Positions 8,758 through 53,730 of a stretch of 64,000 nucleotides of DNA are shown here, one piece after another. Origin of the DNA: Kiritimatiellia bacterium (lineage in GTDB: Bacteria > Verrucomicrobiota > Kiritimatiellia > RFP12 > JBMNHG01); the NCBI GenBank assembly GCA_045627705.1, contig JAZQOE010000124.1, positions 17,865 through 81,864 of the forward strand, read 5' to 3'. Position numbers and translations under genes: made by a program. The notes under the pieces were generated by a model. The model did no database searches and was not told the DNA's origin. It saw only the letters and a list, made by a program, of their open reading frames with translations. Every line of letters begins with the position of its first letter. Positions within the stretch are counted from its first letter, which is position 1.

Positions 8758-8780
8758 CTTAAGGGGACAGGCCTTTTAAG
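8758..8780. repeat. degenerate copy (19/23) of the 23-bp REP-like palindrome, in reverse orientation, between convergent gspE and truB
   Basis: cttaaggggacaggccttttaag compared with the reverse complement of the consensus, cttaaagggacagactatttaag. The flanking 'atgcttaa...tttaagag' extensions also match other copies. Confidence 0.45.
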
Positions 8781-27412: not shown

Positions 27413-27437
27413 AAAATCGGGGTCTGTCCCTATTTCC
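27413..27437 (+). repeat. left copy of an inverted repeat (core CGGGGTCTGTCCC) flanking the GH63-like gene
   Basis: aaaatcggggtctgtccctatttcc. The reverse-complement partner lies at 29252..29275. Confidence 0.5.
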
Positions 27438-27454
27438 ACAACAAGCCTGATGCA

Positions 27455-29197: not shown

Positions 29198-29251
29198 CAA
29201 TGAAATACATGGATGGCAACAAGTTTAGGTAAGAGGTAAAAGGTTGGCGGG

Positions 29252-29275
29252 GGCAATGGGGACAGACCCCGTTTC
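29252..29275 (-). repeat. right (inverted) copy of the repeat flanking the GH63-like gene
   Basis: ggcaatggggacagaccccgtttc is the reverse complement of gaaacggggtctgtccccattgcc. The 13-bp core is identical to the copy at 27418..27430, and the small hairpin GGGG-acaga-CCCC is preserved. Confidence 0.5.
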
Positions 29276-31345: not shown

Positions 31346-34300
31346 ATGTCGTTCAATAAATCCCGCTCGTGTCGGTTGTTCGCCGGCGCAGTTGCCGCCT
31401 TGGCGGCGTTGTTGCCATCGGTTTCCCGTGGCGATGTCGCATTGTCGGGCCAGTTGCCATCCGGATACTGGACAGACTTGCTTCACCTCGGCTCAAATTT
31501 CAATACCGATGATTTGGTCCAGGGTGGCGACGATTGGCTTGCGGGGTGGGGTGGCCAGGCTAACCAGCACCCTTATCCCGGGCAGAAGTACACCGATCTG
31601 CGGACTTCCGGCTCCACGGCTACTCCGGGTTCCCTTGTCTGGACACCGTCTTCTTTCGATGGTGGCATCTGGCAGCCAAGCAACCGCGATTCATACACGA
31701 AATTCTGGCATGTCTATGTCATCGTGCCGGGGACCAGTCCCCGCGAGGTGTATTTTTATACTCGGCAGGATGACGATGTCCGCGTCTGGAACAATGGCAT
31801 CCTGGCTTTCGAAAGCATCGGCTGGGATAACAATGCCGAGAAGGGGCCTTTCCCCGCAGTATTGGTTCCCGGGCAAAATTCGATAACCATCAGGCTCGAC
31901 GAGGGCACCGGCGGCGACTACATGGCTATCCGTGTAACCGACCGCAATAACAACCCATACAGCGATCTCACCTATTCGCTCGTCCCTAGTCCGGAGTTTT
32001 GCGATCCGCTCGCAGGCATTTCGGGGTTTACCTCGACCAACGCCGCCAAGGTTGCGTTCCTGCCTTCTTTGCCGACTGCCACCGAATACCAGTTGTCGCT
32101 TTCCAATGACCCCGCCGAGCTGGATACCAACGGCTGGCTCGCTTATACCGAGGGCTTGCAGCCTGATTCTATCATCGACTTCCCCAAGCCGGCCACAAGC
32201 CTGGCTTCGATTGCCATCTATGCCTGGTTCCGCACCAATGGGGACGACTCCACCATTGAGTCCGTCTCAAATTCAATCCTCTACAATGTCACCCCTCCCG
32301 TGGCCGTGACAAAGGATATCGTTGTCCCAATCAACCCCGCGGCCGGCCGCGAAATCCTGCCCATCGAAATCGATGCCGGTTCACATGACGACTTTGTCGG
32401 CGTGCGCAGCATGGCGGTCTCCCCCGGCAAGATCACCGGCAGCGGACCCGTCACTCTCACCGTTTACAATTCCCTCGGCGTCGCCGGTACCGCCACGGCC
32501 CAAATTACCGCCGTTCCCGCCGAAGGCCCGCTTCCCCACGGCAATTGGACGACAATGCTCCACCTGGGTACCATTTTCAACCAGGATGACCTTTCGAATT
32601 CCGGCGGCATCGATGCCGACCATCTCGAATCGTATGGCGGACAGGCCAACCAGAAGCCTTACCATGGCCTCACATACGATGGTCTTCCAACGGCCCTGCA
32701 TGGTACCGCTCCGCTCACTTGGACGGCTTCCTACGATTCCGATGGCCACTGGGAGCCTTCCGGCCGCGACAACTATATCAAGTATTGGCATGTCTATCTC
32801 AATGTCCCCGGCCCGACAAACCGTACCGCGCGCTTCAATTTCCTCCATGACGATAACGTCCGCGCCTGGAATAACGGTTCGCTTTTCTACTCCCGAAATT
32901 ACGATGGCGCATGGCATTCCGTCGATACTCCTCTCGTTCCCGGCTTGAACTCCATTACTTTCAAGCTTGAAGAGGGCGGCGGCGGCGACTATTTCGAGGT
33001 CAACATGACCGACACCGCCGGCAATTTCATGGATGATGTCACCTTCCAGCTTGATCCTACTGAGTTCAAGATCGAGAACCCGATTACGGGCAGCGTCGAT
33101 TTCCTCGGCACAAACGCCCTCCGCGTGGCCAAGATGCCACGCGATCCCGGCGCGACTGCCTACCAGTTAACGCTCAGCGGCGATGAGGCTTCGATCGATT
33201 CCGACAATTGGCTCGAATACTTCCCCGGCATGACTCCTTCCGATTTGTTCTCTTTCGCCGAGCCAGCCGCCGACGGTCCGATTACGATCCACGCCTGGAT
33301 GCGTTCCTCCATCGGTACGAACCACTACGAGGGCCCGTCGATCACCTACACCCACGACGTCCCGATCGTCAAAGTGAAGCCGGCCGACCTCGACATCGAC
33401 CCCGTCAACGGCACCACCGTGCTGCCTTCGGATATCGATGATGGCACTTCCGATCCTGTCTCCGGGATCTATTCGCTCTCGGTCGTGCCACCTGTAATCT
33501 ACGAACCCACGGATGTCACGCTCGTCGCGATGAACAACGCCGGCCTCGTTTCCACCGCCACGACCTCGGTCGCCCCGTCGTTCTGGGCGGCTCTCGATGT
33601 CGTCGGCGACGATACCGCATACTCCACCCTCGAAGCCAGCTTCCAGGCCGTCGCCTACGGTTCCCCCGCGGCGACTGCCACGGTGTTCTGCTCGTGGAAT
33701 TTCGGCGATGGTTCCGCCGCCGTCGAAGGCCAGGACCTTTTCTCCACCACGCACCTCTATGATCGCCCCGGCGCATTCGATGTCTCGCTGACGATGACCA
33801 GCGCCCTCGGCGATGTCTCGGTAACCAATATCGTCAAGGCGATCAAGATTCTTGGCGACCGCTTTGTCGCTTCCGCCGATGCCGGCGCAGGCGTTTATCC
33901 GTACACCGACGAAACCCTCGCCAGCTCCGACATCGCCGCCGTAGTCGCCGCCGCGCAGCAGGCTTCCGCCGCCGGCGCCGAAGGCGTGGTCGTCGAGGTC
34001 GGGCCGGGCAGCTACGATCTTACGACGCAGATCGACCTCGTCGAGCCTATCACCCTCCTCGGCGTCGCCGGCCCCGCGGACACGCATCTGCGGCAGACCG
34101 TCGATCAGCTGTGCGTTGTCACCGTCTCCACGAATGCCACCGTCGCCGGTCTCACGCTCCACGGCAAGTTTATCTCCAATGACAACCGCGTTGGCGGCGG
34201 CATCCGCATGACTTCCGGCGTCGCCACCAATATCGTCGTCACCGATTGTACGGGCGGTGGCCACGCCATAGGCCCGCTGTATGGCTCCGCCTATCTCGAT

Positions 34301-36370
34301 GGCGATGCGTACATGGTTGACAGCTCAGTCGTCAACAACCGCAACTGGTACAATGGCGGCGCCCTCTGGATCAAGGGCTCCGCCATCGCGGACCGCTGCG
34401 AAATTGCCTACAACTACGGAAGCGCCCAGCACCACTCCGGCGATGGCGGCGCGGGCGTTCGCATGGAGTCCGGCACCGTCCGCAACTGCTTCATCCACCA
34501 CAATGAATCCATCTACCACGCCGGTGGCGGCGTTCGCATAGACAATGGTCTCCTGGAGAACTGCACGATCGTGGCCAACCAGGTCGGCGCGTCCGACAAT
34601 GTGTCCGGCATGGGCGCCGGTGGCGTCCGCCACAACGGCGGCACCGTCCGCAACTGCATAATCTACGGCAACCATGACTATGCCGGAACCCCGTCCGATT
34701 ACGCCGGTACTGGCGGCGCCACCTATTCCTGCGCCCCCGAACTCGTGAGCGGCACGGGCAACATCGCGCTCGATCCGCTGTTTGCCGATGTCGCGTCGGG
34801 CGACTATCGCCCCCAGGCATCGTCGCCATGCGTCGATTCCGGCACGGCCATCGATCCTTCGGTTGCGCTCGACTTCTCTCTTGGCGCGCGCGTTGTCGAT
34901 GGCAACGGCGATGGCACCCCCGCTATCGACATGGGATGCTTCGAGTACGTCCGCGACACCTCGATCTTCGACTGCTCGTTTGTTGTCGAAGGCGACTCCG
35001 CCGCGCTTGGTTCTCTTGACGCATCCTTCACGGCCACGCTCTACGGAAGCTTTGCCGCCACGTCTTCCGTGACTTGCGCCTGGGATTTCGGCGATGGCTC
35101 CGAATTGGTCACCGGCCACAATCTCTTCGAGGTCGGGCACAAGTACGATTCGCTCGGGCTTTTCACGGTGACCCTCTCCGTGGTCAACTCGCTTGGCGAA
35201 TCGGTCTCCTTCGCCCGCCCCGACTGCATCTGCGTCCTTTCCTCCCAAGTCTATGCCGCGACCAATGGCGCCGCGATCTTCCCGTACGCTACTCCCGAAA
35301 CCGCGGCGACCGACCTCGGCGAGGCGTTCAAGGTCGTGCCGCGCGCATTCGACTGCGGCGCCACTTCCGCCGTTGTCTCGATCGGACCCGGCGAATTCAC
35401 GATTTCGTCGGAGTTCGCGCTTGACAAGCCAATCACCGTCATCGGCTCCGGACGCGACGCCACCCACGTGCGGCAGGTCTCCGACGACCAGCGCGTTTTC
35501 GTGATATCCGATCCCGCCGCGATTGTCTCCAGCCTCACGGTCCATGGCAAATATACCCCGAACAACCGCTGGGGCGGCGGTATCCATCTGACTGGCGGCA
35601 TGGCCACCAATGTCGTCGTCACCGGCTGCACAGGCGGCGGCCACGCGATTGGCGGACTCTGCGGTTCGGTCTATCTCGGCGGCAGCAACGCCACCCTCGT
35701 CGATAGCCTTGTCATCAGCAACCGCTATGATTATAACGGCGGCGGCGTCTGGCTTGAGAGCGACAGCGCGCTCGTGGACCGCTGCGAGATCGCATGGAAC
35801 CGCGGTTCGATGCAGCACCACTCCGGCGACGGCGGCGGCGGCGTCCGCATTTGGGTGGGTACCGTCCGCAACTGCCTCATTCACCACAATACGTCCATCT
35901 TCCATCCGGGTGGCGGCGTCCGCAACTATTTCGGCACGCTCGAGAACTGCACCATCGTCGATAACTCCGTCGAACAGAATGGCATCGGCAATGGCGGGGG
36001 CGTCTTCCAGCAGGGCGGTACCGTCCGCAATTGCATCATCGCCGGCAACCGCTGCGACGATACGAACCAGGGCGGCGTCAATGCTGGTCCCGAAGACTAC
36101 CACATGCACGACAGCCAGTATGTAGCCAACACCTGCGCCCCCGAAGTTCCGGAGGAGAACGGCAACATCCGTCTCGCGCCCGTATTCAAGGACGCCGCGA
36201 ATTGCGACTACCACATCGGCTTCTCCAGCCCGACTGTCGGCGCCGGCTCCTTCGTCGAGTGGATGGACGGCGCCGTCGATCTCGATGGCGAAATCCGCGT
36301 CCTCGGCCGTGCGGTTGACATGGGTTGCTACGAGACCCGCCTCCCCGGTACGCTGATCTTCATCAGATAG
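31346..36370 (+). CDS. giant secreted beta-helix protein, paralog 2 (1674 aa). Signal peptide, two PA14-like domains, Ig-like modules, two beta-helix modules ending in DMGCFE/DMGCYE, and a C-terminal LPGTLIFIR.
   Basis: Signal peptide MSFNKSRSCRLFAGAVAALAALLPSVSRG. PA14-like DLLHLGSNFNTDD...QDDDVRVWNNGILAF...IRLDEGTGGDYMAI, duplicated as TMLHLGTIFNQDD...HDDNVRAWNNGSLFY...FKLEEGGGGDYFEV. Beta-helix and choice-of-anchor-Q-like motifs DPLFADVASGDYRPQASSPCVDSG...IDMGCFEY and VDMGCYETRLPGTLIFIR at the terminus. Confidence 0.8.
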   Translation: MSFNKSRSCRLFAGAVAALAALLPSVSRGDVALSGQLPSGYWTDLLHLGSNFNTDDLVQGGDDWLAGWGGQANQHPYPGQKYTDLRTSGSTATPGSLVWTPSSFDGGIWQPSNRDSYTKFWHVYVIVPGTSPREVYFYTRQDDDVRVWNNGILAFESIGWDNNAEKGPFPAVLVPGQNSITIRLDEGTGGDYMAIRVTDRNNNPYSDLTYSLVPSPEFCDPLAGISGFTSTNAAKVAFLPSLPTATEYQLSLSNDPAELDTNGWLAYTEGLQPDSIIDFPKPATSLASIAIYAWFRTNGDDSTIESVSNSILYNVTPPVAVTKDIVVPINPAAGREILPIEIDAGSHDDFVGVRSMAVSPGKITGSGPVTLTVYNSLGVAGTATAQITAVPAEGPLPHGNWTTMLHLGTIFNQDDLSNSGGIDADHLESYGGQANQKPYHGLTYDGLPTALHGTAPLTWTASYDSDGHWEPSGRDNYIKYWHVYLNVPGPTNRTARFNFLHDDNVRAWNNGSLFYSRNYDGAWHSVDTPLVPGLNSITFKLEEGGGGDYFEVNMTDTAGNFMDDVTFQLDPTEFKIENPITGSVDFLGTNALRVAKMPRDPGATAYQLTLSGDEASIDSDNWLEYFPGMTPSDLFSFAEPAADGPITIHAWMRSSIGTNHYEGPSITYTHDVPIVKVKPADLDIDPVNGTTVLPSDIDDGTSDPVSGIYSLSVVPPVIYEPTDVTLVAMNNAGLVSTATTSVAPSFWAALDVVGDDTAYSTLEASFQAVAYGSPAATATVFCSWNFGDGSAAVEGQDLFSTTHLYDRPGAFDVSLTMTSALGDVSVTNIVKAIKILGDRFVASADAGAGVYPYTDETLASSDIAAVVAAAQQASAAGAEGVVVEVGPGSYDLTTQIDLVEPITLLGVAGPADTHLRQTVDQLCVVTVSTNATVAGLTLHGKFISNDNRVGGGIRMTSGVATNIVVTDCTGGGHAIGPLYGSAYLDGDAYMVDSSVVNNRNWYNGGALWIKGSAIADRCEIAYNYGSAQHHSGDGGAGVRMESGTVRNCFIHHNESIYHAGGGVRIDNGLLENCTIVANQVGASDNVSGMGAGGVRHNGGTVRNCIIYGNHDYAGTPSDYAGTGGATYSCAPELVSGTGNIALDPLFADVASGDYRPQASSPCVDSGTAIDPSVALDFSLGARVVDGNGDGTPAIDMGCFEYVRDTSIFDCSFVVEGDSAALGSLDASFTATLYGSFAATSSVTCAWDFGDGSELVTGHNLFEVGHKYDSLGLFTVTLSVVNSLGESVSFARPDCICVLSSQVYAATNGAAIFPYATPETAATDLGEAFKVVPRAFDCGATSAVVSIGPGEFTISSEFALDKPITVIGSGRDATHVRQVSDDQRVFVISDPAAIVSSLTVHGKYTPNNRWGGGIHLTGGMATNVVVTGCTGGGHAIGGLCGSVYLGGSNATLVDSLVISNRYDYNGGGVWLESDSALVDRCEIAWNRGSMQHHSGDGGGGVRIWVGTVRNCLIHHNTSIFHPGGGVRNYFGTLENCTIVDNSVEQNGIGNGGGVFQQGGTVRNCIIAGNRCDDTNQGGVNAGPEDYHMHDSQYVANTCAPEVPEENGNIRLAPVFKDAANCDYHIGFSSPTVGAGSFVEWMDGAVDLDGEIRVLGRAVDMGCYETRLPGTLIFIR

Positions 36371-36541: not shown

Positions 36542-39500
36542 ATGTCCATGCGTTTCGTTTCGCAAGTGCTCGCGGCGGCGGCCGCTGGCCTTTTCCTTTG
36601 TGCGTCGGCCAAGGCCGATGTCGCGATGACCGGTCCTCTGCCCAATGGGTACTGGACGGACCTCCTCCATCTGGGAGCCAACTTCCAGACCGATATGTTT
36701 ACCTCCAATGGCCCCAACCTTGATACCGACCTTCTTTCTGGTTATGGCGGTGAAGCCAACCAGGAACCTAGCGACGGCCTTGTCTATGCCGGCCTATCGA
36801 GTGTCAAGAGCACATCGCAGGAGCCGAGCGGCCAGCTTACCTGGACGGCGATGCACGATTCCGATGGCATTTGGCAGCCTAGCAATGTCGATAATTACAT
36901 CAAATACTGGCACACATATCTGATTGTTCCAGGCGCCACGGCCCGCGGCGCCAAGATCTACACTCGCCAGGATGACGACCTCCGCATCTGGATCAACGGC
37001 GCAGTTGCCGTCAACAGCCCCGGTTATTCCGACAACGAGAAGGGCCCGTTCGATATTACCCTCCAGCCGGGCATGAATTCGGTTACCATCAAGCTCGTAG
37101 AGGGTGGCGGCGGCGACTACATGGCCGTCCGGATGACCGATACAAATGGCCAGTATTTCGATGATATCACATACGCGTTGTTTCCCGCGAAGCTGACGCT
37201 CGTCAACCCTGTCACCGGCAGCGAAGGCTACATCTCCGGCGATAGCGTCAAGATCTCCAGGTTCCCGTCTGTCGCCGACGCGGTTTCCTACCAGTTCACG
37301 CTTTCCGACGATCCATCGTCCGTTTCCGGCGCCGCGTGGAAGCCGTATGTGAATGGCATGATCCCCGAAGACGAAGTCTCCATCACTCCGCCGGCGGCAA
37401 GCGGCGATGAGGTCACGGTCTATGCGTGGTTCCTCCATTCCGACGGCACCCTTTCCTGCGATTCGGATTCAATCGTCTGGACATCCGCCGCCCCGACGGC
37501 AAAGGCCAAGGCATCGCTCTCGATCCCTATCAATGTCACGGCCGGCACTGTCATTGCGCCCGAACTGGTGGATGACGGCTCCGAAAGCGGCGACATCGGC
37601 ATCTACTCGGTGTCTGTCTCCCCGGACCGCATCTACGGCGACACTGATGTGACGCTCACGGTCATGAACAACGCCGGCGTCATCGCCACCGATACCGTGA
37701 GGGTCTCCCTCTCTTCCAAGCTCGACATCCATGTTTCGAACAGTGGCGACGACACCACCGGCGACGGCACGGTCGGCAACCCATACGCCACGATCCAGAA
37801 GGCGGTCTCCGTGGTTGCGGACGGCGGGGCGATCTACCTGGCCTCCGGCACCTACTTCGACGGAGAGTCGTATCCCTACGCCGTTTCAGGCATCTCCATC
37901 TGCAAGGAACCCGGCGACGCCGGCACTGCCATCCTCGATGGCGGCAACGCTTCCGGCAATCTCTTCACCGTGTCTTCCGGCTCGCTCGCCCTTGTCGACC
38001 TCGTTATGATGGGCACGACCGACGAACTCGTCTTCGCCACGCAATCCGCCCTCGCCGTCACAAACTGCGTCTTCACCCAGACCCAGCAGAACCGCGTTGG
38101 CTATAAGACGGGCGCCATCGAGCTGAACACGCATTCCTCCCTCGACGCATTCGGCTCCACCTTCCGCGACATGACCGTGACGGCAGTGATCCGCCTGTCC
38201 GGCAGCAATTCGGAAGGCAGCGTTGTCACCCTGCGCAACTGCCTGTTCGAGAACAACGCTGTCGGTTGCGACCTCGGCAGCAACAACCATGAGGGCAGCC
38301 TGATCTATACCCGCGTCAATGGCGGCTCGGCCTTCAACTTCTACGACACGGTCTTCCGCAACAACTCCACGTATGATTGGGGAGTACACGACGCATACAT
38401 GTCCCCGATCGTCTATTCGGACTTCACGCCCCTGGACATCGACCGCTGCCAGTTCATCGGCAACAGCGGCGGCAACCTGATCGGCATCTGCTACGCCAAC
38501 GGCGACGTCCGCAACTCGCTCTTCGTCGAAAATCGCACGCCTTACTCCATCGCGCACGGCTATTCCTCCACCGTCTCGTTCCGCAACTGCACCTTCGTGC
38601 GTGGCACGGGCGGTTTCACCGGCTACAGGGCCCATTCCGAACTCTACAACTGCATCCTCTACGGGCTGGACCACTTGAACCATCGGGATCCGCATGGTGC
38701 CAGTGCCGATTATCTGACGCTCCATGATTCCTTCATCTACGGCATCGACATGGCTTCCAGCGCCGAGCTCGGCTACTTTATCGGCGGCAGCTCGAATGTG
38801 ACGATCGGCACCGACCCGCTGCTCGCCAATGTGGACGTCCTTCCGTCCGACGCCGGCTTCGATGCCCGCCCGCTTCCCTACAGCCCCGTGATCGACGCCG
38901 GCGACAACTCCGCCATCCGCGCCAGCGCGACCGATCTCGCCGGCAGCCCCCGCGTGGCCAACAACTCGGACGCCTCCTCCGCGACAGTCGATCTCGGATG
39001 CTACGAATCGCTCTTCCACGCCGCCATCCAGCCGACCTTCCAGTTCCCGGTCCCCGGATCGCTCAGCGGCTACCGCGGCGTGACATACCAGGTTCCTGTC
39101 ACCATTTCCCCAGCCGTTTCCGGTTCCGTCTCCGCCCAGATCAGCTACGGCGAGGGCGTGACCGGTCCCGCCACCCTTGAGTTCCCCAATGGCGCAGGTC
39201 CCGTCACCCTCGAGCTCGAACTCCTCTCCGGCGACGCCACTTCCGCTCGCGTCACCATCACCGAAAGCGGCATCTCCCAGGGTGTGCTTCCCGGCAGATT
39301 CGATGTGTTCATGGACGACATCGTGATCACCGTTGGCGGCGTGACGAACATCTACGTCCGCGAAGGCACCAGCTTTGACATTCCGGTCTCCCTCGCCCTC
39401 GAGGGCGCAGTCGCCCCTGGCGACGTAGCCTTCGCGATCGACTCGGTTTCGGGATCCGGTACCAGCCAGGCCTCATGGATCGGCGGCGAAGCCGTGGTTC

Positions 39501-42500
39501 CCGCAGGCGCACACAGTTCGACCGGCTCCATCCATATCGAGGCCGGCAGCGGCATCAACGAAATCGTCCTTACCTCCGGCGCGACCTTCGCCGAGACCGG
39601 CACCGGGACAGTCGCGCTACGCGTCATCGCCTATCCCGGCTTCCTCGTGGTGGATCCGGAGAATGGCGATGACGATGCGAGCGGCACCATCGGAAATCCG
39701 ATGCGCACTATCGACCGTGCTCTGTCGGTACTTTCCGCGGGCGATGAAATCCACCTGCTTCCGGGCACTTACAATGCTTCCAACGTGGCATTCCCCATTG
39801 AGCCAGGCACGATCGCCCTCGTAGGCTGCGACTCTACCGGCGCTCTCGCCGAAGACAGCTCGCTGTGCGTCATCGATGGCGCGAACGCCGTGAAGAACCT
39901 CGTGAAGTATGTCGGAGTCTCCGGTTCCTCCACCGGCCGCATCGCGAACGTGTGGCTGCGCAATTCCATGGAGGAAGCAGTCTATTGCGAAGACTCCGAT
40001 GTCGTCGTGAGCAACGACTTCTTCACGCAGTCCGCCCCCAAGGGCGAGAATGGCGGCGCCCTCCGCGTCCACAATATCAGCCATGTCGAAGCCGATGATT
40101 GCTGCTTCAGTGGCATGGTCCGCCGCGCCGTCGTCAATTGCACGGCGGTTGACTCATCGGCCGCAAAGAGTTTCACGGCGCGCCGCTCGGTCTTCATCGA
40201 CAACACGAACTACCAGGCTTCGATCGGGGCGAACGATGGCGGTCCGTTTACAATCACCGTCGAGGATTCCGACTTCATCCGCAACTGCGGCAATGCCAAT
40301 ACGGGCGTCCATGACGCCTACGCTTCCGCCGTCGCTTATGTCAACAACGACCACCTGATCATGGATCGCTGCCGCTTCTTCGGCAACACCGGCAACCATA
40401 TAATCGGCCAGGAATACATGGGCAACTACACCTGCCGTATTTCGAACTCGCTGTTCGTCGAGAATAACAACAACAAGTCCGCCTTCCACGGCTATTCCGG
40501 TCACATCGAGATCCACAACTGCACCTTCCTGCGCAACTCCGGCGGCTATGCCGGCCGCATTATCACGACGGCCATATACAATGGCATTTTCGTTGATGAT
40601 GGCGCACTTTCCAAGGCCGATACGGGAGATGGCGATGAATCCTCGAGAATCCAGCTCCACGACTGCATTGTCCACAATATTACCGGGGGCCAGAGATTCA
40701 ACGCCGCCGCCAGCACCGGCGTCGTGGATGTCGAACCCAAGCTGGCGAACGCTGGAGTCGCATGGGACGCCGAAGGCTTTGACGCCCGCCCGCTTCCCTA
40801 CAGCCCTGCAATCGATGCGGGCGACAACGCCTTCGTCCAGGGCGAGTACGACCTTGCCGGCAATCCCCGCATTGCCGACAACACGGATTCCGGCTCCGCT
40901 GTCGTGGATTTCGGCTGCTACGAGTCGCTTTTCCATGCGGAAGTTGAGCCGACCTTCCGCGTTCCGCTGCAAGGCTCCATCGCCGGCTACCGCGGCGTGA
41001 CTTACTCGATCCCGATATCTATCGCCCCCGCCGTGTCCGGTCCCGTCGAGGCGGTTGTCACATACGGTCCCGGCCTTGCCGGCCCGGAGACACTCTCCTT
41101 TGAGGATGGCGCCGATACAGTTATCCTCGCGCTCGAGGTGCTCGATTCCGATGCGACCTTTGCGCAGGTCGTCATCAGCGAGTCTGGCACCGAGCACGGC
41201 ATCCTCGATGGCGTCTATGACATCTTCATGGATGATCTGGTCGTGTCTGTTGAAGGAAAGTTGAACTTCTTCGTCCGCGGAGGAGCCGAGATTGACATCC
41301 CGTTCTCCCTGGCGCTTGATGGCGCTGTCGCCCCCGGTGACGTTGCGTTCACGGTTTCGGCGATCCAGGGCGATGGTACCAGCACGGCCGAATGGGTCGG
41401 CGGCGAACCGCTTATCCCCTCCGGCTATCACAGCTCGACTGGCGCAATCCACGTGGTTGGCGGGTCCGGGCTGAACACCGTGCGAGTCACAACCTCCGCT
41501 TCCGCCTTCGCCGAAACGGATCAGCCGATTGCCGATATCGGGATCGTAGCCCACCCTGGCTACCTCTATGTCGATCCCGTGAACGGAAGCAATGCGAATA
41601 TCGGTTCGCTGGAGCAGCCCCTCGCGACCATCGGCTTCGCGCTCTCCGTGCTAAACGCTGGCGACGAGGTCAGGCTGCTTCCCGGCACCTACTCGGCCGC
41701 CGCCGAAGCCTTCCCGTACCAGCCCGGCATGATTCGGATTGTCGGTTGCGATGCGACTGGCGCTCCCGCCGAAGATCCATCGCTGTGCGTGATCGATGGC
41801 GGCAATGCCGTTGCAAGCCTCTTCCGCTACGAGCTCGTTTCCGGTGATATGGCTGGGCATATCGCGAATGTCTGGTTGCGCGAATCCATCTCCCAGGCCA
41901 TCTACTGCATTGATTCCGATCTCGTGGTAAGCAACGCCTTCTTCACGCAGGGCGTCGGCAACCTCGACGAGTGCGGTGGCATCCGTGCCCACAATGTCTG
42001 CAATACCGAAATGATCGACTGCTGCTTCAGCGGTATGGTGCGCCGCGCCGCGGTCCAGTGTTCCTCCGATGGCGGTACCGGCCCACTGGTTGTCCGTAAC
42101 TGCCAGTTCATCGACAACACGCTGGGTTACGCCTCCGTCGCGTACTACGACGGTGGCAATCGCGGGTTCTCGGCCACGCTTGTCGATTGCGATTTCATCC
42201 GCAATGTCGGCCAGCCCGGCCGCGGTCTCCCCGACTGCTCCGCCTGCGCAGCCGCCTATGTGAACGACAACGCCCTGTACATCGATCGCTGCCGCTTCCT
42301 CGGCAACGGCGGCAACCAGGTGATTGGCGGACGCAACACGCCGTGTTCCATCGCGAACTCGCTCTTCGCCGGCAATAACACGACGGACAGCAACTTCAAG
42401 GGCTGGAACACCAGGCCGCCTGTCGTGAACTGCACATTCGTCGGCAACAGCGGCGGCTACGATGGCTACGGCTTCAGCCCATACTTCCGCAACTGCGTGT

Positions 42501-42877
42501 TCTACAAGGATGGCGCAATCAGCAAGGATAGCAACGATAGCGGTCACTCCTACATCCGCGACTCGCTGGTCTTCGGCGATCCGGTCGAGGGCGACCTCGG
42601 CTATGTCGAGGAAGCCGTCGGAACGGTTGTGACCGGCGTTGACCCGCTCCTCAAGAACGCGGATGTCGCCTGGGATGCCGAAGGCTTCGACGCCCATCTG
42701 AAGAATAACAGCCCGGCTATCGATGCCGGCAACGTCGATCTGGTCTCCGGCGATCTCGACCTCGATGGCACCGCCCGCCTGAAGTATGGCCACACGAAGA
42801 AGTTTGGCCTCAAGGTCGATTTTGGATGCTACGAAGCCACCGTCCCCGCCGCCGGCACGCTTATCTTCCTCAAGTAG
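36542..42877 (+). CDS. giant secreted beta-helix protein, paralog 3 (2111 aa). Signal peptide, PA14-like domain, Ig-like modules, three beta-helix modules (two forming a tandem ~640-aa duplication), and C-terminal ...AAGTLIFLK.
   Basis: Signal peptide MSMRFVSQVLAAAAAGLFLCASAKA. PA14-like DLLHLGANFQTD...QDDDLRIWINGAVAV...IKLVEGGGGDYMAV. Repeated module boundaries VDLGCYESLFHAAIQPTFQFPVPG (~38990) and VDFGCYESLFHAEVEPTFRVPLQG (~40905). Terminal VDFGCYEATVPAAGTLIFLK. Confidence 0.8.
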   Translation: MSMRFVSQVLAAAAAGLFLCASAKADVAMTGPLPNGYWTDLLHLGANFQTDMFTSNGPNLDTDLLSGYGGEANQEPSDGLVYAGLSSVKSTSQEPSGQLTWTAMHDSDGIWQPSNVDNYIKYWHTYLIVPGATARGAKIYTRQDDDLRIWINGAVAVNSPGYSDNEKGPFDITLQPGMNSVTIKLVEGGGGDYMAVRMTDTNGQYFDDITYALFPAKLTLVNPVTGSEGYISGDSVKISRFPSVADAVSYQFTLSDDPSSVSGAAWKPYVNGMIPEDEVSITPPAASGDEVTVYAWFLHSDGTLSCDSDSIVWTSAAPTAKAKASLSIPINVTAGTVIAPELVDDGSESGDIGIYSVSVSPDRIYGDTDVTLTVMNNAGVIATDTVRVSLSSKLDIHVSNSGDDTTGDGTVGNPYATIQKAVSVVADGGAIYLASGTYFDGESYPYAVSGISICKEPGDAGTAILDGGNASGNLFTVSSGSLALVDLVMMGTTDELVFATQSALAVTNCVFTQTQQNRVGYKTGAIELNTHSSLDAFGSTFRDMTVTAVIRLSGSNSEGSVVTLRNCLFENNAVGCDLGSNNHEGSLIYTRVNGGSAFNFYDTVFRNNSTYDWGVHDAYMSPIVYSDFTPLDIDRCQFIGNSGGNLIGICYANGDVRNSLFVENRTPYSIAHGYSSTVSFRNCTFVRGTGGFTGYRAHSELYNCILYGLDHLNHRDPHGASADYLTLHDSFIYGIDMASSAELGYFIGGSSNVTIGTDPLLANVDVLPSDAGFDARPLPYSPVIDAGDNSAIRASATDLAGSPRVANNSDASSATVDLGCYESLFHAAIQPTFQFPVPGSLSGYRGVTYQVPVTISPAVSGSVSAQISYGEGVTGPATLEFPNGAGPVTLELELLSGDATSARVTITESGISQGVLPGRFDVFMDDIVITVGGVTNIYVREGTSFDIPVSLALEGAVAPGDVAFAIDSVSGSGTSQASWIGGEAVVPAGAHSSTGSIHIEAGSGINEIVLTSGATFAETGTGTVALRVIAYPGFLVVDPENGDDDASGTIGNPMRTIDRALSVLSAGDEIHLLPGTYNASNVAFPIEPGTIALVGCDSTGALAEDSSLCVIDGANAVKNLVKYVGVSGSSTGRIANVWLRNSMEEAVYCEDSDVVVSNDFFTQSAPKGENGGALRVHNISHVEADDCCFSGMVRRAVVNCTAVDSSAAKSFTARRSVFIDNTNYQASIGANDGGPFTITVEDSDFIRNCGNANTGVHDAYASAVAYVNNDHLIMDRCRFFGNTGNHIIGQEYMGNYTCRISNSLFVENNNNKSAFHGYSGHIEIHNCTFLRNSGGYAGRIITTAIYNGIFVDDGALSKADTGDGDESSRIQLHDCIVHNITGGQRFNAAASTGVVDVEPKLANAGVAWDAEGFDARPLPYSPAIDAGDNAFVQGEYDLAGNPRIADNTDSGSAVVDFGCYESLFHAEVEPTFRVPLQGSIAGYRGVTYSIPISIAPAVSGPVEAVVTYGPGLAGPETLSFEDGADTVILALEVLDSDATFAQVVISESGTEHGILDGVYDIFMDDLVVSVEGKLNFFVRGGAEIDIPFSLALDGAVAPGDVAFTVSAIQGDGTSTAEWVGGEPLIPSGYHSSTGAIHVVGGSGLNTVRVTTSASAFAETDQPIADIGIVAHPGYLYVDPVNGSNANIGSLEQPLATIGFALSVLNAGDEVRLLPGTYSAAAEAFPYQPGMIRIVGCDATGAPAEDPSLCVIDGGNAVASLFRYELVSGDMAGHIANVWLRESISQAIYCIDSDLVVSNAFFTQGVGNLDECGGIRAHNVCNTEMIDCCFSGMVRRAAVQCSSDGGTGPLVVRNCQFIDNTLGYASVAYYDGGNRGFSATLVDCDFIRNVGQPGRGLPDCSACAAAYVNDNALYIDRCRFLGNGGNQVIGGRNTPCSIANSLFAGNNTTDSNFKGWNTRPPVVNCTFVGNSGGYDGYGFSPYFRNCVFYKDGAISKDSNDSGHSYIRDSLVFGDPVEGDLGYVEEAVGTVVTGVDPLLKNADVAWDAEGFDAHLKNNSPAIDAGNVDLVSGDLDLDGTARLKYGHTKKFGLKVDFGCYEATVPAAGTLIFLK

Positions 42878-42947: not shown

Positions 42948-42986
42948 TATGTCTCCGATTTCGCATATATTTATGTCATTTCAACA

Positions 42987-43009
42987 CTTAAATAGTCTGT
43001 CCCTTTAAG
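42987..43009 (+). repeat. solo copy of the 23-bp REP-like palindrome, ~210 bp upstream of carB
   Basis: cttaaatagtctgtccctttaag is identical to the copies at 52594 and 53708. Confidence 0.6.
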
Positions 43010-51596: not shown

Positions 51597-52646
51597 TTAG
51601 TTCCCAGCAATCGGCGCCGCGACGATTTCGTAGAGGAACGATGCGTCGTTCATGTCTGTGATCAAGGCCTCGTAGCCGACGCAGGCAAGGCGCTCGCCTA
51701 GCCCTTGCGCTTCTTCCCATGAACCAAAGTTCGCGCCGAAACATAGATTCACGCCATAGAAGCGAACTGGCACACCTGGATTCTTCTCAAATTCAAAGTG
51801 CGGACCGCGCGCGACAATTCGACCGTGCGTACCTGCAGGCTTGTCTCGCGGGACAATAGCCGAAAAATCCAGTGACGAACCAGGAATAATGTCGCGGTAA
51901 GGACGCATCGGTATCCAGTCGTCGGAAGGAGTTATCCGGCACGGCCCGACATTGCCTGCAATTGTAAACGGACGCGATCCGGAAATCTTGAGGTCAAGCG
52001 ATGATGTTGCTCCCGCGTGATGAGGAGAAGTGCCGAAGGCGATGCGGATTTCAAGGATATTGGCATTCCATGTGCGGTTGTCCTGGAGCATCATGAAAAC
52101 GGGCTTTGCCGATGATATCGCAAGACTGGTCTTGCCGCTCGCGTTGACCACCTCGAACGAATCCGTGGTCGCTGTGATAATCTGTGGCTTCTCTCCACGT
52201 TCAAGCGGGATGTCTCGCCATTCGTTGCCGGCACGGACGCGGCCACCGAAGAAACTATGCGGAAGACATGTACGTAGGCAGAGGCCATTTGATTCGAAAT
52301 CGCGATCTGGCGTGCCTTCGTAATGCACGGATATCGCGCCATCGGAATCGGCGCCAACCCTGACGATGCCATTGACACAAGTTCCAGCGTCATCGCATTT
52401 TGGAATCGAGAATGGCATCGATCCATCGGCAGAGCCAGTTGTACGGAAGTCCACTGTTGCCGTGGCTGCCGACCAGTTCAATCGATAGACGCATGGCGCA
52501 AACGATAGCCCAAGTTCTTCCAAGGCCAGTTCGCCGCCCGAATACAAATTCGCCGCGACCGCGTTCGCGGCAAACATAATTATTCCTGCTACTCTTAAAT
52601 AGTCTGTCCCTTTAAGCATTTTCCGCAAGTTTTTCATTTGAGTCAT
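51597..52646 (-). CDS. hypothetical protein (possibly secreted). The start codon is uncertain because a REP-like element lies in the first 20 codons. Alternative start near 52577.
   Basis: Long ORF with high-GC codon usage. The N-terminus MTQMKNLRKMLKGTDYLRVAGIIMFAANAVAA is signal-peptide-like, but codons 11-18 are the translated REP element. Confidence 0.4.
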   Translation of the reverse strand: MTQMKNLRKMLKGTDYLRVAGIIMFAANAVAANLYSGGELALEELGLSFAPCVYRLNWSAATATVDFRTTGSADGSMPFSIPKCDDAGTCVNGIVRVGADSDGAISVHYEGTPDRDFESNGLCLRTCLPHSFFGGRVRAGNEWRDIPLERGEKPQIITATTDSFEVVNASGKTSLAISSAKPVFMMLQDNRTWNANILEIRIAFGTSPHHAGATSSLDLKISGSRPFTIAGNVGPCRITPSDDWIPMRPYRDIIPGSSLDFSAIVPRDKPAGTHGRIVARGPHFEFEKNPGVPVRFYGVNLCFGANFGSWEEAQGLGERLACVGYEALITDMNDASFLYEIVAAPIAGN

Positions 52647-53730
52647 CCTCTTCCTTTGCAGTCGCTTACGCCATCGTCACCGGGTTATTTTGTAGCCGTC
52701 TTGCGGAGCAGATTCTTATCCCGTTCCACTCCCTGCACATCCCGATGCCGTAGCCGCCCGTCTTCCTGCCCTCGCTGAAGTGACCCGCGAACTTTTCGAC
52801 CACTCCATTCACGAATTCCTTCGTCCCGACCGCGAAGCCCTTCGTAAAATGCCTCACCTTGCAGCGCAGCATCACCGGCAATTCGAGCTTGCCATGCCCC
52901 GCCAGCACTTTCCGCACTTCCTCGTGGTCGAGTGTATCCACACCCTTCGCATACAGCAGCGCACGGTACTGCGGCGCGACCGCCCCGAAGTCTGGCTTGT
53001 TCGCTTCTGGCCTGTAAATCCTTGTAATGCACAATCGCGCGTACCTGTCGCCAGCGACAGCCGCGCCATAGCTACTCCAGCGGTAGTCCTTTGGATCCTC
53101 AACTATCTGCGCACGGATCGGGTTGAGTTCGATGTACGCAGCCACAGCGGCGAGCGACCCGCCGCCTTCGACGAAAGTGCTGCCGAAGCGGCCTTGCCAG
53201 AGTGTTCCCTCGTGCCCCTCGTGATGGGCGCGGTACCATACCGAGAAGCGCTGCTTAAGGCACTGCATGAAAGGCGAGATGTCGCCCATGCGCCTCCGCA
53301 GCATCTCCTGCTCAGTCTCCAATCGGTTGATCCAATTGTGCTTGCGGTATTCGTCCCACTGGCATTTCAGCTCCGCCGCGTTCATCGAGCCATAGAGAAT
53401 TTCGACACGCTCCAGCAATATTGCCTCCGTAAGCTCGATCGCCTTCGGCACATGCACGAGCACGTGGAAGTGGTTCGACATCACGCAGTACGCCAGGACC
53501 TCCAGCCCGGAGAACGCCGCGACCTTCCGCAGCATCCTCACGAACATCTCCTTCTCCGCGTCCCCGAACGCCATCTTCTTGAACGCGCACCTGCTCACCA
53601 GGTGGTAGTATCCCTCGCCTTCGTTCTTTGCTCTTGCCTTGCGCATGGTTTTCTCCTTTGCACGCATGATACGCCGCAACTTGCGGACATGTCAATGCTT
53701 AAATAGTCTGTCCCTTTAAGAGTTTTGGTG
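52594..53730 (-). mobile_element. candidate IS200/IS605-like (RAYT-like) unit: a Y1 transposase gene bounded by two identical 23-bp REP-like palindromes in direct orientation
   Basis: Copies at 52594..52616 and 53708..53730 are identical (cttaaatagtctgtccctttaag), placed 50 bp beyond the stop and 62 bp upstream of the start of the transposase gene. A Y1 HUH transposase lies between them. Confidence 0.45.
52666..53646 (-). CDS. IS200-like Y1 (HUH) transposase / REP-associated tyrosine transposase-like protein with extended C-terminal domain
   Basis: GYYHLVSRCAFKKMAFG...VLAYCVMSNHFHVLVHVP. HUH motif (HFHVL) in the N-terminal ~140 aa. RBS AAGGAG 8 nt upstream of the Met at 53646. The listed ORF starts at 53679. 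Confidence 0.65.
   Translation of the reverse strand: MRKARAKNEGEGYYHLVSRCAFKKMAFGDAEKEMFVRMLRKVAAFSGLEVLAYCVMSNHFHVLVHVPKAIELTEAILLERVEILYGSMNAAELKCQWDEYRKHNWINRLETEQEMLRRRMGDISPFMQCLKQRFSVWYRAHHEGHEGTLWQGRFGSTFVEGGGSLAAVAAYIELNPIRAQIVEDPKDYRWSSYGAAVAGDRYARLCITRIYRPEANKPDFGAVAPQYRALLYAKGVDTLDHEEVRKVLAGHGKLELPVMLRCKVRHFTKGFAVGTKEFVNGVVEKFAGHFSEGRKTGGYGIGMCREWNGIRICSARRLQNNPVTMA

What the first reader, a model, noticed from the sequence alone, without database searches (positions are those of the whole stretch)
52594..53730. Identical 23-bp REP-like palindromes (CTTAAATAGTCTGTCCCTTTAAG) bracket a Y1 (IS200-like/RAYT-like) transposase gene, with further solo copies elsewhere in the window
The 23-mer occurs identically at 42987 (upstream of carB), 52594 and 53708. 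A 19/23 copy in reverse orientation lies at 8758, between convergent gspE and truB. The copies at 52594 and 53708 lie 50 bp beyond the stop and 62 bp upstream of the start of a gene (52666..53646, minus strand). This gene encodes an HUH Y1 transposase (YYHLV...MSNHFHVLVHVP). The flanking nucleotides are swapped palindromically between the copies (act-CTTAAA...TTTAAG-cat versus atg-CTTAAA...TTTAAG-agt). The element is therefore a 6-7 bp stem / 11-nt loop hairpin presented identically at both ends. This is the organisation of IS200/IS605 ends and of REP-RAYT pairs. The solo copies behave as REP sequences. One copy sits inside the first 20 codons of the ORF 51597..52646, making that gene's start codon questionable.
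Basis: seen in the sequence. Interest (0 to 1): 0.6.

Follow-up and report, generated by a model that had tools for sequence, protein, structure and literature searches.

The report
Tyrosine-nuclease gene bracketed by GGGACAG-box repeats
A 1.1-kb unit made of a RAYT/TIRYT-type single-strand DNA nuclease gene and two identical 23-base repeats is real and has moved as a block between genomes, but it belongs to a known, poorly studied kind of element and differs mainly in having its two repeats in the same orientation.

Summary
The 23-mer is exact at 42987, 52594 and 53698 (not 53708). A 19/23 inverted variant lies at 8758. None are expected by chance.

Four homologous genes (67-83% identical, six gene neighbourhoods counting the window) carry the same or a near-identical repeat on both sides. 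Similarity starts and stops at the repeats. Left and right copies share variant bases.

Across more distant relatives the conserved part is the "loop", AAGGGACAG, not the stem. It is about 30-fold enriched, strand-specifically, upstream of the genes, often 11-13 nt before a TTGAC. This matches the GGGGWSAS box of published TIRYT/TIRtron elements.

Fourteen distant relatives have an inverted downstream copy. The window's clade has a direct copy.

Best reading: the repeats are the enzyme's cognate sites, in a direct-repeat variant of a TIRtron, with solo copies nearby. It is neither an IS200/IS605 element nor a canonical REP-RAYT pair. REP-like abundance could not be tested, because the source genome is absent from the collections searched.

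The parts
53698..53720 (-). Left (gene-upstream) 23-nt repeat. On the gene's sense strand it reads CTTAAAGGGACAGACTATTTAAG, with the core box AAGGGACAG.
   Evidence: Exact copy. The same repeat lies at the same place in L007, L008, L090 and L095. Similarity between elements begins at its first base.
53666..53695 (-). Sigma-70-like promoter TTGACA-18-TATCAT for the Y1 gene. It begins 2 nt after the left repeat.
   Evidence: 11 of 12 consensus match. It is conserved in L007, L008 and L090. A TTGAC begins 11-13 nt after the box in 17 of 42 family loci.
53653..53658 (-). Shine-Dalgarno sequence AAGGAG, 6 nt before the ATG at 53646.
   Evidence: Read from the sequence. Conserved in related elements.
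52666..53646 (-). Gene for a 326-aa class-2 Y1 HUH/Tyr enzyme (RAYT/TIRYT type). HUH is at 53472-53464 and the catalytic Tyr171 at 53136-53134.
52617..52665 (-). 49-nt spacer between the stop codon and the right repeat. It is partly conserved (aaGGAagAGGATG...ATGAA.AAC) in L007 and L008.
   Evidence: Alignment.
52594..52616 (-). Right (gene-downstream) 23-nt repeat, in direct orientation relative to the left one. It lies within codons 11-18 of ORF 51597-52646.
   Evidence: Exact copy. Direct downstream copies lie 37-55 nt after the stop in WIN, L007, L008, L090 and L015, and about 41-44 nt after it in L094 and L095. Similarity between elements ends within or just after it.
42978..43009 (-). 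Solo copy of the left-end type: the 23-mer plus an in-register TGTTGAAAT. It lies between the terminator of the 2111-aa ORF and carB.
   Evidence: Exact 23-mer. 30 of 33 identical to 53688-53720. No further similarity to element interior. Neighbouring genes, terminator.
8758..8780 (+). Diverged solo copy CTTAAGGGGACAGGCCTTTTAAG (19/23). It has a perfect GGGGWSAS box and the same ATG..AGT flanks as the right repeat.
   Evidence: It lies between the convergent GspE-type gene and truB.

Best explanation
The 23-mer is the cognate DNA site of the adjacent Y1 HUH/Tyr enzyme. The enzyme is a long (about 325 aa) member of the RAYT/TIRYT branch of the TnpA-Y1 superfamily.

The part the family recognises is the asymmetric core AAGGGACAG. 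Here it is displayed in the 11-nt loop of a weak 6-bp hairpin on the gene's sense strand. The CTTAAA/TTTAAG arms are an addition found in this clade and a few others.

Gene, promoter and the two repeats form a unit of about 1127 bp (52594-53720) that has relocated as a block over evolutionary time. It is a variant of the published 'TIRtron', with the two repeats direct instead of inverted.

The left repeat sits 2 nt upstream of the -35 hexamer, so enzyme bound there probably also controls its own transcription. Solo copies (42987, 8758) are dispersed or left-over single ends, like the small solo-TIR families described for TIRYT genes.

Shown: the repeats, their placement, family-wide conservation of the box, the catalytic residues, the TnpAREP-like fold, the six different neighbourhoods, and left/right co-variation.

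Inferred: binding and cleavage of the site as single-stranded DNA, the way the unit moves, and autoregulation.
For: - The repeats are exact, with none expected by chance.
- The same or a near-identical repeat sits on both sides of homologs P0003, P0005, P0002 and P0008 (70-83% identical) and a variant beside P0010 (67%). Counting the window, these lie in six different gene neighbourhoods. Nothing is syntenic except the gene.
- Similarity starts at the first base of the left repeat and ends in or just after the right repeat.
- Left and right copies share variants: ACAAT in both copies in L090, GATAAA arms in both in L094, GGCCC in both in L015.
- GGGACAG occurs 56 times on the sense strand and 8 on the antisense strand in 15.4 kb of upstream flanks of 83 homologs at 35-83% identity. 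That is 3.6 per kb against 0.11 per kb background.
- The box sits a fixed 11-13 nt before a TTGAC in 17 of 42 loci.
- In 14 more distant relatives an inverted copy follows the gene. This is the published TIRtron layout, and the box fits its GGGGWSAS motif (PMC3733652).
- Identical proteins P0036 (12 contigs) and P0014 (6 contigs) each occupy a single context, which indicates a low-copy, stably held gene.
Against: - There is no biochemical evidence for any member of this clade.
- The hairpin is marginal: -1.6 kcal/mol, z -2.5.
- Only 10 of 56 upstream boxes have a stem of 4 bp or more closing the same 11-nt loop. Recognition as duplex DNA is therefore not excluded.
- The direct orientation differs from the defining layout of TIRtrons and REPtrons.
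- 25 of 62 family loci lack an exact box upstream.
- The genome-wide copy number of the 23-mer is unknown.
Confidence: 0.6

Rival explanations
1. It is an autonomous insertion sequence of the IS200/IS605 type. The two same-strand hairpins would be the left and right ends, and the enzyme would excise the top strand as a circle and paste it elsewhere ('peel and paste').
For: - Both repeats are on the same strand in direct orientation, as IS200/IS605 end hairpins are.
- The unit has sharp boundaries and lies in six different neighbourhoods.
- The sense strand folds slightly better than the antisense strand.
Against: - NCBIfam transpos_IS200 scores 26 bits against a 55-bit cut-off.
- The tyrosine motif is Y...NP (class 2, RAYT-like), not the Y...Q of IS200 transposases (PMC6006769, Table 1).
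- The fold is closer to TnpAREP than to IS608 or ISDra2 TnpA.
- No conserved sequence lies outside the hairpins where IS608-type cleavage and target sites would be. The left flanks differ in all six elements.
- Identical proteins were not seen in more than one context.
- Only one gene copy lies in the 64-kb window.
Confidence: 0.2
2. The 23-mer is mainly a duplex operator or regulatory palindrome. It would be bound by the Y1 protein's C-terminal region or by another regulator to control the Y1 promoter and neighbouring genes, with no DNA cleavage or mobility involved.
For: - The left copy abuts the -35 hexamer.
- The box-to-TTGAC spacing is fixed across the family.
- Tandem, iteron-like arrays of the box lie upstream of several homologs.
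- The CTTAAA-N11-TTTAAG arms resemble half-sites.
Against: - It does not explain the second copy placed 37-55 nt after the stop codon in seven loci, nor the inverted copy 200-270 nt after it in 14 others.
- It does not explain why element similarity ends exactly at the repeats.
- It does not explain why the catalytic His and Tyr residues stay invariant or nearly so.
- The conserved core is asymmetric, not palindromic.
Confidence: 0.12
3. The repeat is a coding or translation-start module. With the ATG that flanks it, it reads M-LKGTDYL-RV. It has spread because it supplies start codons or signal-peptide n-regions to genes.
For: - Only one frame of the 23-mer is open.
- In the window it lies within the N-terminal signal-peptide region of ORF 51597-52646.
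- In L095 the flanking ATG plus the repeat supplies the start of a TatD gene.
- The variant at 8758 also follows an ATG.
Against: - The left copy and the solo copy at 42987 are not in ORFs. They run into stop codons.
- The flanking ATG is present in only 3 of 8 right-end or solo copies.
- L008 reads the repeat in another frame.
- Family-wide conservation is of a DNA box upstream of promoters.
Confidence: 0.05

Closest known systems
TIRYT / TIRtron (Di Nocera, De Gregorio and Rocco 2013, PMC3733652)
   Same: - RAYT-like Y1 gene that is longer than canonical RAYTs.
- Short flanking repeats carrying the GGGGWSAS motif. The window repeat has AGGGACAG (7 of 8) and the copy at 8758 has GGGGACAG (8 of 8).
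- Some published TIRs are self-complementary.
- Small families of solo copies occur.
- Fourteen relatives of the window gene show the inverted TIR layout.
   Different: - In the window and its clade the downstream copy is direct, not inverted.
- It lies about 50 nt after the stop rather than 200-270 nt.
- The two copies are identical 23-mers with palindromic 6-bp arms.
REP-RAYT / REPtron (E. coli TnpAREP, PDB 4ER8; PMC3479197, PMC3116915)
   Same: - HUH and Y...NP motifs.
- A gene flanked by its cognate short structured repeats, with further solo copies in intergenic DNA.
- Low gene copy number.
   Different: - No GTAG- or CGTC-tagged G+C-rich palindrome.
- Direct instead of inverted flanking copies.
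- The protein is twice as long: a three-helix insertion at 74-117 and a C-terminal tail of about 135 aa.
- It scores below the NCBIfam equivalog cut-off (63 versus 80 bits).
- High genomic abundance has not been shown.
IS200/IS605 family (IS608, ISDra2)
   Same: - Y1 HUH chemistry.
- Hairpins near both ends on the same strand.
- No terminal inverted repeats in the window element.
- Size of about 1 kb.
   Different: - Different tyrosine motif (Y...NP, not Y...Q).
- Weak HMM match (26 versus 55 bits).
- No conserved guide, cleavage or target sequence outside the hairpins.
- No sign of multicopy identical elements.
TnpAY1 subclasses 2.1 and 2.3 (Quentin et al. 2018, PMC6006769)
   Same: - The motifs NHFH, WQ, YIELNP and WSS fit subclass 2.1.
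- The length (326 aa), the insertion of about 50 aa between beta3 and alphaC, and the long C-terminal tail fit subclass 2.3 (median 325 aa).
   Different: - That study found no REP-like sequences for subclasses 2.1 and 2.3. Here the genes carry conserved flanking boxes.
- Alteromonadales and Vibrionales proteins of the 2.3 type are only 25-31% identical to the window protein and carry YVDLNP.

Membership tests
IS200/IS605 insertion sequences | Transposase matches the IS200 TnpA model and carries the Y...Q tyrosine motif | tested here: not met
   NCBIfam transpos_IS200 scores 26 bits against a 55-bit cut-off. The motif is AAYIELNP. The criterion comes from PMC6006769, Table 1.
IS200/IS605 insertion sequences | Subterminal hairpins at both ends on the same strand | tested here: met
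   Both 23-mers are direct, with a 6-bp stem and an 11-nt loop. The hairpin is weak at -1.6 kcal/mol.
IS200/IS605 insertion sequences | Insertion 3' of a specific short target, with conserved cleavage sites outside the hairpins | tested here: not met
   No conserved bases lie 5' of the left repeat in six elements. Similarity ends at or in the right repeat.
IS200/IS605 insertion sequences | Several near-identical copies per genome | tested here: inconclusive
   The source genome is not available. There is one gene in 64 kb. Identical relatives P0036 and P0014 each occupy one context. Three paralog-like copies (88-94% identical) come from one metagenome sample, but it is unknown whether they share a genome.
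REP-RAYT (REPtron) | RAYT protein: HUH plus Y...NP, with a TnpAREP-like fold | tested here: met
   [not shown]
REP-RAYT (REPtron) | Passes the curated REP_Tyr_transpos equivalog model | tested here: not met
   63.4 bits against an 80-bit cut-off.
REP-RAYT (REPtron) | Gene flanked by REPs in inverted orientation, with a GTAG-tagged G+C-rich palindrome | tested here: not met
   The copies are direct, A+T-rich (8 of 23 G+C) and lack GT[AG]G at the foot.
REP-RAYT (REPtron) | Tens to hundreds of dispersed extragenic copies in the genome | not testable with these tools
   Two solo copies lie in 64 kb. The source genome is absent from the GTDB representatives, the JGI metagenomes and IMG/VR.
TIRYT / TIRtron | Flanking repeats carry the GGGGWSAS motif | tested here: met
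   AGGGACAG in the 23-mer (7 of 8) and GGGGACAG at 8758 (8 of 8). The box is about 30-fold enriched upstream of homologs.
TIRYT / TIRtron | The two flanking repeats are terminal inverted repeats | tested here: not met
   They are direct in the window, L007, L008, L090 and L015 and in L094 and L095. They are inverted in 14 more distant relatives.
TIRYT / TIRtron | RAYT-like Y1 protein that is longer than RAYTs and has its own signatures | tested here: met
   326 aa, with an insertion at 74-117 and a C-terminal tail.
TnpAY1 subclass 2.1/2.3 | Assignment with the authors' subclass HMMs | not tested
   The HMMs are not available here. The motifs fit 2.1 and the architecture fits 2.3 (PMC6006769, Table 1).

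The most novel reading that the evidence does not exclude
The window's clade may have turned the TIRYT layout into a one-gene cassette that moves by enzyme-mediated strand exchange between two identical, directly repeated box sites.

Cleavage at the same position in both copies would release a single-stranded circle carrying the gene and one repeat. It would leave one solo repeat in the chromosome. Solo repeats would serve as landing sites.

This would explain three things: the identical and co-varying ends, the sharp boundaries, and, in the window, flanks arranged so that both reciprocal joints would form perfect 9-bp stems (ACT-[23]-AGT and ATG-[23]-CAT).

The right end would also donate a start codon and the first codons to the gene it lands in front of.
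Probability: 0.2. Interest if true: 0.65.

Novelty: new variant of a known kind. Interest (0 to 1): 0.4.

Why it matters
RAYT/TIRYT enzymes are widespread. For this long subfamily alone, 616 clusters at 50% identity match at E of 1e-30 or better. Only the E. coli enzyme has been studied biochemically, and nobody knows how these genes or their repeats move.

The largest survey reported no associated repeats for the long subclasses 2.1 and 2.3. Here a short, deeply conserved box (AAGGGACAG) is tied to such genes. It is seen in two layouts (inverted and direct), with co-varying ends and a fixed position next to the promoter.

That gives a defined 23-nt substrate and a 326-aa protein for a direct cleavage and strand-transfer test. 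It also gives a natural contrast, direct versus inverted ends, for asking whether the gene itself is still mobile.

The gain is incremental rather than a new principle.

Tried and rejected
- **Source genome look-ups.** Exact-protein look-ups of the window gene (326-aa and 333-aa starts) and of its 94% relative found nothing. The source genome and any further copies could not be examined.
- **GTDB scan.** A scan with CTTAANGGGACAGNCNNTTTAAG gave 6 hits, about what chance predicts for 19 fixed bases by my own estimate. All are a perfect-palindrome look-alike, CTTAAAGGGACAG(T/A)C(C/G)CTTTAAG, in Thermoleophilaceae MAGs, Vibrio and Desulfohalobiaceae. In L001 it lies between convergent genes, like a bidirectional terminator. 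I judged these not demonstrably related.
- **Other collection scans.** The JGI metagenome and IMG/VR scans for the exact repeat found nothing.
- **Rfam.** No family matched in the element, the window or 11 related loci, apart from a tmRNA and a tRNA elsewhere.
- **attL/attR reading of the swapped flanks.** Complementarity is 3+3 in the window but 0-2 in five other elements. I kept it only as the novel case.
- **Solo copies as decayed elements.** Apart from the 9 in-register bases at 42987, there is no significant similarity of their flanks to element interiors.
- **Conserved RNA or ORF in the 200-270-nt spacer of TIRtron-type relatives.** There is no conservation across clades.
- **Neighbouring ORF 51597-52646 for an empty-site comparison.** Only five distant homologs exist.
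- **Replication-strand bias from GC skew.** The skew follows gene orientation and is uninformative.
- **Plasmid collection.** Only 25-31% identical relatives turned up, and the one inspected (L102) lacks the GGGACAG box.
- **AlphaFold-database fold library.** It was unavailable.
Full report
**1. Observation**

The 23-mer CTTAAATAGTCTGTCCCTTTAAG occurs exactly three times in the window, all on the + strand: 42987-43009, 52594-52616 and 53698-53720. No match with up to 3 mismatches appeared in 100 dinucleotide-preserving shuffles. The true gaps to the gene are 49 nt after the stop codon and 51 nt before the start codon.

A 19/23 variant, CTTAAGGGGACAGGCCTTTTAAG, lies at 8758-8780 in the opposite orientation. 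It sits between a convergent GspE-type gene and truB.

The window is 60% G+C and the repeat is 35% G+C. Among all four copies only the 23-mer is shared. The solo copy at 42987 is the exception in one respect: it matches the copy at 53698 over 30 of 33 bases. On the gene's sense strand this means that TGTTGAAAT follows the solo repeat where TTGACAT (the -35 region) follows the left repeat.

**2. The gene**

ORF 52666-53646 (minus strand) is preceded by AAGGAG. It encodes a 326-aa protein that matches Pfam Y1_Tnp at 1.8e-14. It matches both halves of NCBIfam REP_Tyr_transpos, but at 63 bits against an 80-bit cut-off. It scores 26 bits against a 55-bit cut-off for transpos_IS200.

In an alignment of 31 homologs, Y14-H15, H59 of the N-H-F-H motif and Y171 of AAYIELNP are invariant, and H61 is nearly invariant.

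An AlphaFold model built on that alignment is confident (pLDDT 88). Its best solved match is E. coli TnpAREP bound to a REP hairpin (4ER8):
- Foldseek gives TM 0.76.

Relative to TnpAREP the protein has a three-helix insertion (about residues 74-117) between the HUH strand and the next core helix. It also has a C-terminal tail of about 135 residues with no recognisable match.

**3. The unit recurs elsewhere**

The family is large. At E of 0.001 or better, 1707 proteins match. Among 50%-identity representatives, 616 clusters match at E of 1e-30 or better.

Close homologs were fetched with their DNA: P0003, P0005 and P0002 (81-83% identical), P0008 (70%) and P0010 (67%). These loci are L007, L008, L090, L095 and L094.

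- All lie in different gene neighbourhoods, and nothing but the Y1 gene is shared with the window.
- In each, the same or a near-identical repeat lies about 50-70 nt upstream of the start. A second copy in the same orientation lies about 40-55 nt after the stop.
- Alignment of the elements shows that similarity begins at the first base of the left repeat. It runs through a TTGACA-N18-TATCAT promoter, the AAGGAG and the gene, and ends within or just after the right repeat.
- Left and right copies of one element share variant bases. Both are ACAAT in L090, both have GATAAA arms in L094, and both have GGCCC in L015.

This is how the two ends of an element recognised by a single protein are expected to behave.

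**4. What is conserved is the 'loop'**

I fetched 80 further loci encoding homologs at 35-55% identity. With L007-L009 this gives 83 loci for the count below.

- The heptamer GGGACAG occurs 56 times on the sense strand and 8 times on the antisense strand in 15.4 kb of 200-nt upstream flanks. That is 3.6 per kb against 0.11 per kb in the rest of the loci.
- The consensus of the gene-proximal copy is aAAGGGACAG(g/a)C.atT.
- In 17 of 42 loci a TTGAC begins 11-13 nt after it.
- Several loci carry two to four tandem copies.
- A stem of 4 bp or more closing exactly the 11-nt loop GGGACAG+4 is found in 10 of 56 instances, against 0-1 in other registers. The stems differ in sequence: CTTAAA/TTTAAG, ATAAA/TTTAT, CTAA/TTAG and CAAA/TTTG.

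The hairpin is therefore a recurrent feature but not a universal one.

As single-stranded DNA the window repeat folds at only -1.6 kcal/mol on the sense strand and -0.7 on the other strand.

**5. Two layouts**

In 14 more distant relatives an inverted copy lies 160-270 nt after the stop in most cases, and at 390 nt in one. An example is L026, which reads GGGACAGACAAACTATTA ... TAATAGTTTGTCTGTCCC.

That is the 'TIRtron' described by Di Nocera et al. (PMC3733652): RAYT-like 'TIRYT' genes flanked by terminal inverted repeats that share GGGGWSAS. Some of those repeats are self-complementary, and some have small solo-copy families. The window repeat has AGGGACAG and the copy at 8758 has GGGGACAG.

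In the window's clade the downstream copy is direct and close to the stop codon. This holds for the window, L007, L008, L090 and L015 and for L094 and L095.

Quentin et al. (PMC6006769) equate TIRYTs with their subclass 2.1. They describe a related subclass 2.3 of median length 325 aa with a 55-aa insertion. They report that neither automatic nor manual searches found REP-like sequences for either subclass.

The window protein has 2.1-type motifs (NHFH, WQ, YIELNP, WSS) and a 2.3-type architecture. Plasmid- or chromid-borne relatives, including two with 2.3-type motifs from Photobacterium and Pseudoalteromonas, are only 25-31% identical to it.

**6. Mobility**

Proteins identical to P0036 (12 contigs from different samples) and to P0014 (6 contigs) each occupy a single genomic context. 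Clusters at 90% identity stand for few contigs. This does not look like an actively multiplying insertion sequence.

At 67-83% identity, however, the context differs every time and the unit keeps both repeats. It therefore relocates as a block on longer time scales. Three copies that are 88-94% identical to each other come from one metagenome sample. Whether they share a genome is unknown.

**7. Likely mechanism**

I consider it most likely (0.6) that the repeat is the enzyme's cognate site. By analogy with TnpAREP and IS608 TnpA, it would be recognised as single-stranded DNA, with AAGGGACAG as the specificity and probably cleavage determinant. The left copy, 2 nt from the -35 hexamer, would double as an autoregulatory site.

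These steps are inferred. The anatomy, the conservation, the catalytic residues and the fold are shown.

The rivals are:
- a true IS200/IS605-type element (0.2);
- a purely regulatory duplex operator (0.12);
- a coding or start-codon module (0.05).

The last rests on two cases where the right repeat and the ATG beside it lie at the start of the downstream gene. One is the window ORF 51597-52646. Its signal-peptide hydrophobic core aligns from residue 19 with residue 8 of homolog P0128. The other is a TatD gene in L095 that begins MLKGTDNLRYFDSHAHF. I read these as consequences of insertion next to gene starts, not as the function of the repeat.

**8. The swapped flanks**

In the window the flanks are ACT-[23]-CAT on the left and ATG-[23]-AGT on the right, read on the sense strand. 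Both reciprocal joints would therefore have perfect 9-bp stems, as expected for attL/attR after a crossover inside the repeat. The chance of this for one element is about 1 in 4096.

It is not reproduced in L007, L008, L090, L094 or L095. The solo variant at 8758 also carries the same ATG..AGT flanks as the right copy. I keep the cassette model only as the most novel reading not excluded (0.2).

**9. Limits**

The source genome is not in the GTDB representative genomes, the JGI metagenome contigs or IMG/VR. No empty site could be recovered.

**10. Verdict**

The finding is real and non-random.
- It is a gene-plus-repeats unit of the RAYT/TIRYT branch of Y1 HUH enzymes.
- It is best filed as a direct-repeat variant of the TIRtron.
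- It is not an IS200/IS605 element and not a canonical REP-RAYT pair.

The kind is already described but biochemically unexplored. The new points are the direct layout, the co-varying ends, the depth of conservation of the box in the long subfamily, and its fixed position next to the promoter.

Noticed in passing
window 2988, 6252, 9650, 11214, 20130, 26637, 36425, 43142, 43162, 57884 (weaker: 2624, 24594): A second and more abundant palindromic repeat family, (A-run)cGGCGCGCCg(T-run), has about 10-12 copies in 64 kb. It looks like bidirectional terminators or a REP-like family. Two tandem copies lie 130-150 bp from the solo 23-mer, upstream of carB.
   Followed up: partly
window 27415-27448 and 29241-29274: A 34-nt inverted pair (76% complementary) brackets the MGH1-like glycoside hydrolase gene 27455-29197. 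Each arm contains a GGG(G)ACAGACCCC hairpin followed by a T-run. They are probably small terminators that happen to contain GGGACAG.
   Followed up: partly
window 51597-52646 (minus strand): This ORF aligns only with residues 8-314 of 504-610-aa homologs and lacks their C-terminal part (the best homolog carries a Pfam PF00150, GH5-family, match). It appears C-terminally truncated. The n-region of its signal peptide is encoded by the right 23-mer.
   Followed up: partly
L095 2123-2941: A TatD-family gene starts at the ATG that flanks the right repeat. Its first nine codons (MLKGTDNLR) come from the repeat and precede the usual FDSHAH motif.
   Followed up: partly
L001 7084-7106, L002 2321-2343, L004 6654-6676, L005 5681-5703, L003 865-887, L006 6672-6694: A near-perfect palindrome, CTTAAAGGGACAG(T/A)C(C/G)CTTTAAG, occurs in two Thermoleophilaceae MAGs of about 70% G+C (three copies in one MAG), in Vibrio sinus and in a Desulfohalobiaceae MAG. 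The commonest form folds at -7.7 kcal/mol. In L001 it lies between convergent genes. Any link to Y1 genes is untested.
   Followed up: partly
L020, L022, L025, L026, L027, L036, L056, L061, L065, L089, L091 (stop codon to inverted repeat): TIRtron-type relatives keep a 200-270-nt non-coding spacer between the stop codon and the inverted right repeat. It is conserved only between close relatives and matches no Rfam family.
   Followed up: partly
L025 about 3410-3450, L019 3730-3890, L040 about 425-495, L026 about 3890-3945: Tandem, iteron-like arrays of two to four copies of the GGGACAG box (period 18-53 nt) lie upstream of several homologs. L025 also has four inverted copies downstream.
   Followed up: no
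L102 1189-2163 and flanks (Pseudoalteromonas sp. HL-AS2 plasmid): A gene with subclass-2.3-type motifs (324 aa, NHTH, YVDLNP) has GGGTGTCAC directly before its ATG and GGGTGTCAT twice downstream, inside a tandem duplication of about 220 bp. Direct flanking repeats may also exist in a subclass reported to have none.
   Followed up: no
L091 7524 and 9930; L036 1259; L039 1491; L076 6922; L009 168: Solo copies of the locus-specific repeat lie 2-3 kb from the Y1 gene in several relatives. In L091 the solo copy matches the gene-proximal copy over about 21 of 22 nt.
   Followed up: no
window 36542-42877 and 31346-36370 (+), 11253-16742 (-): Very large beta-helix/DUF1565-type ORFs contain internal repeats of about 1920 nt and are mutually similar across strands. 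With the Chlam_PMP-like neighbours in L008, this suggests an organism related to the PVC group. The taxon was not established.
   Followed up: no
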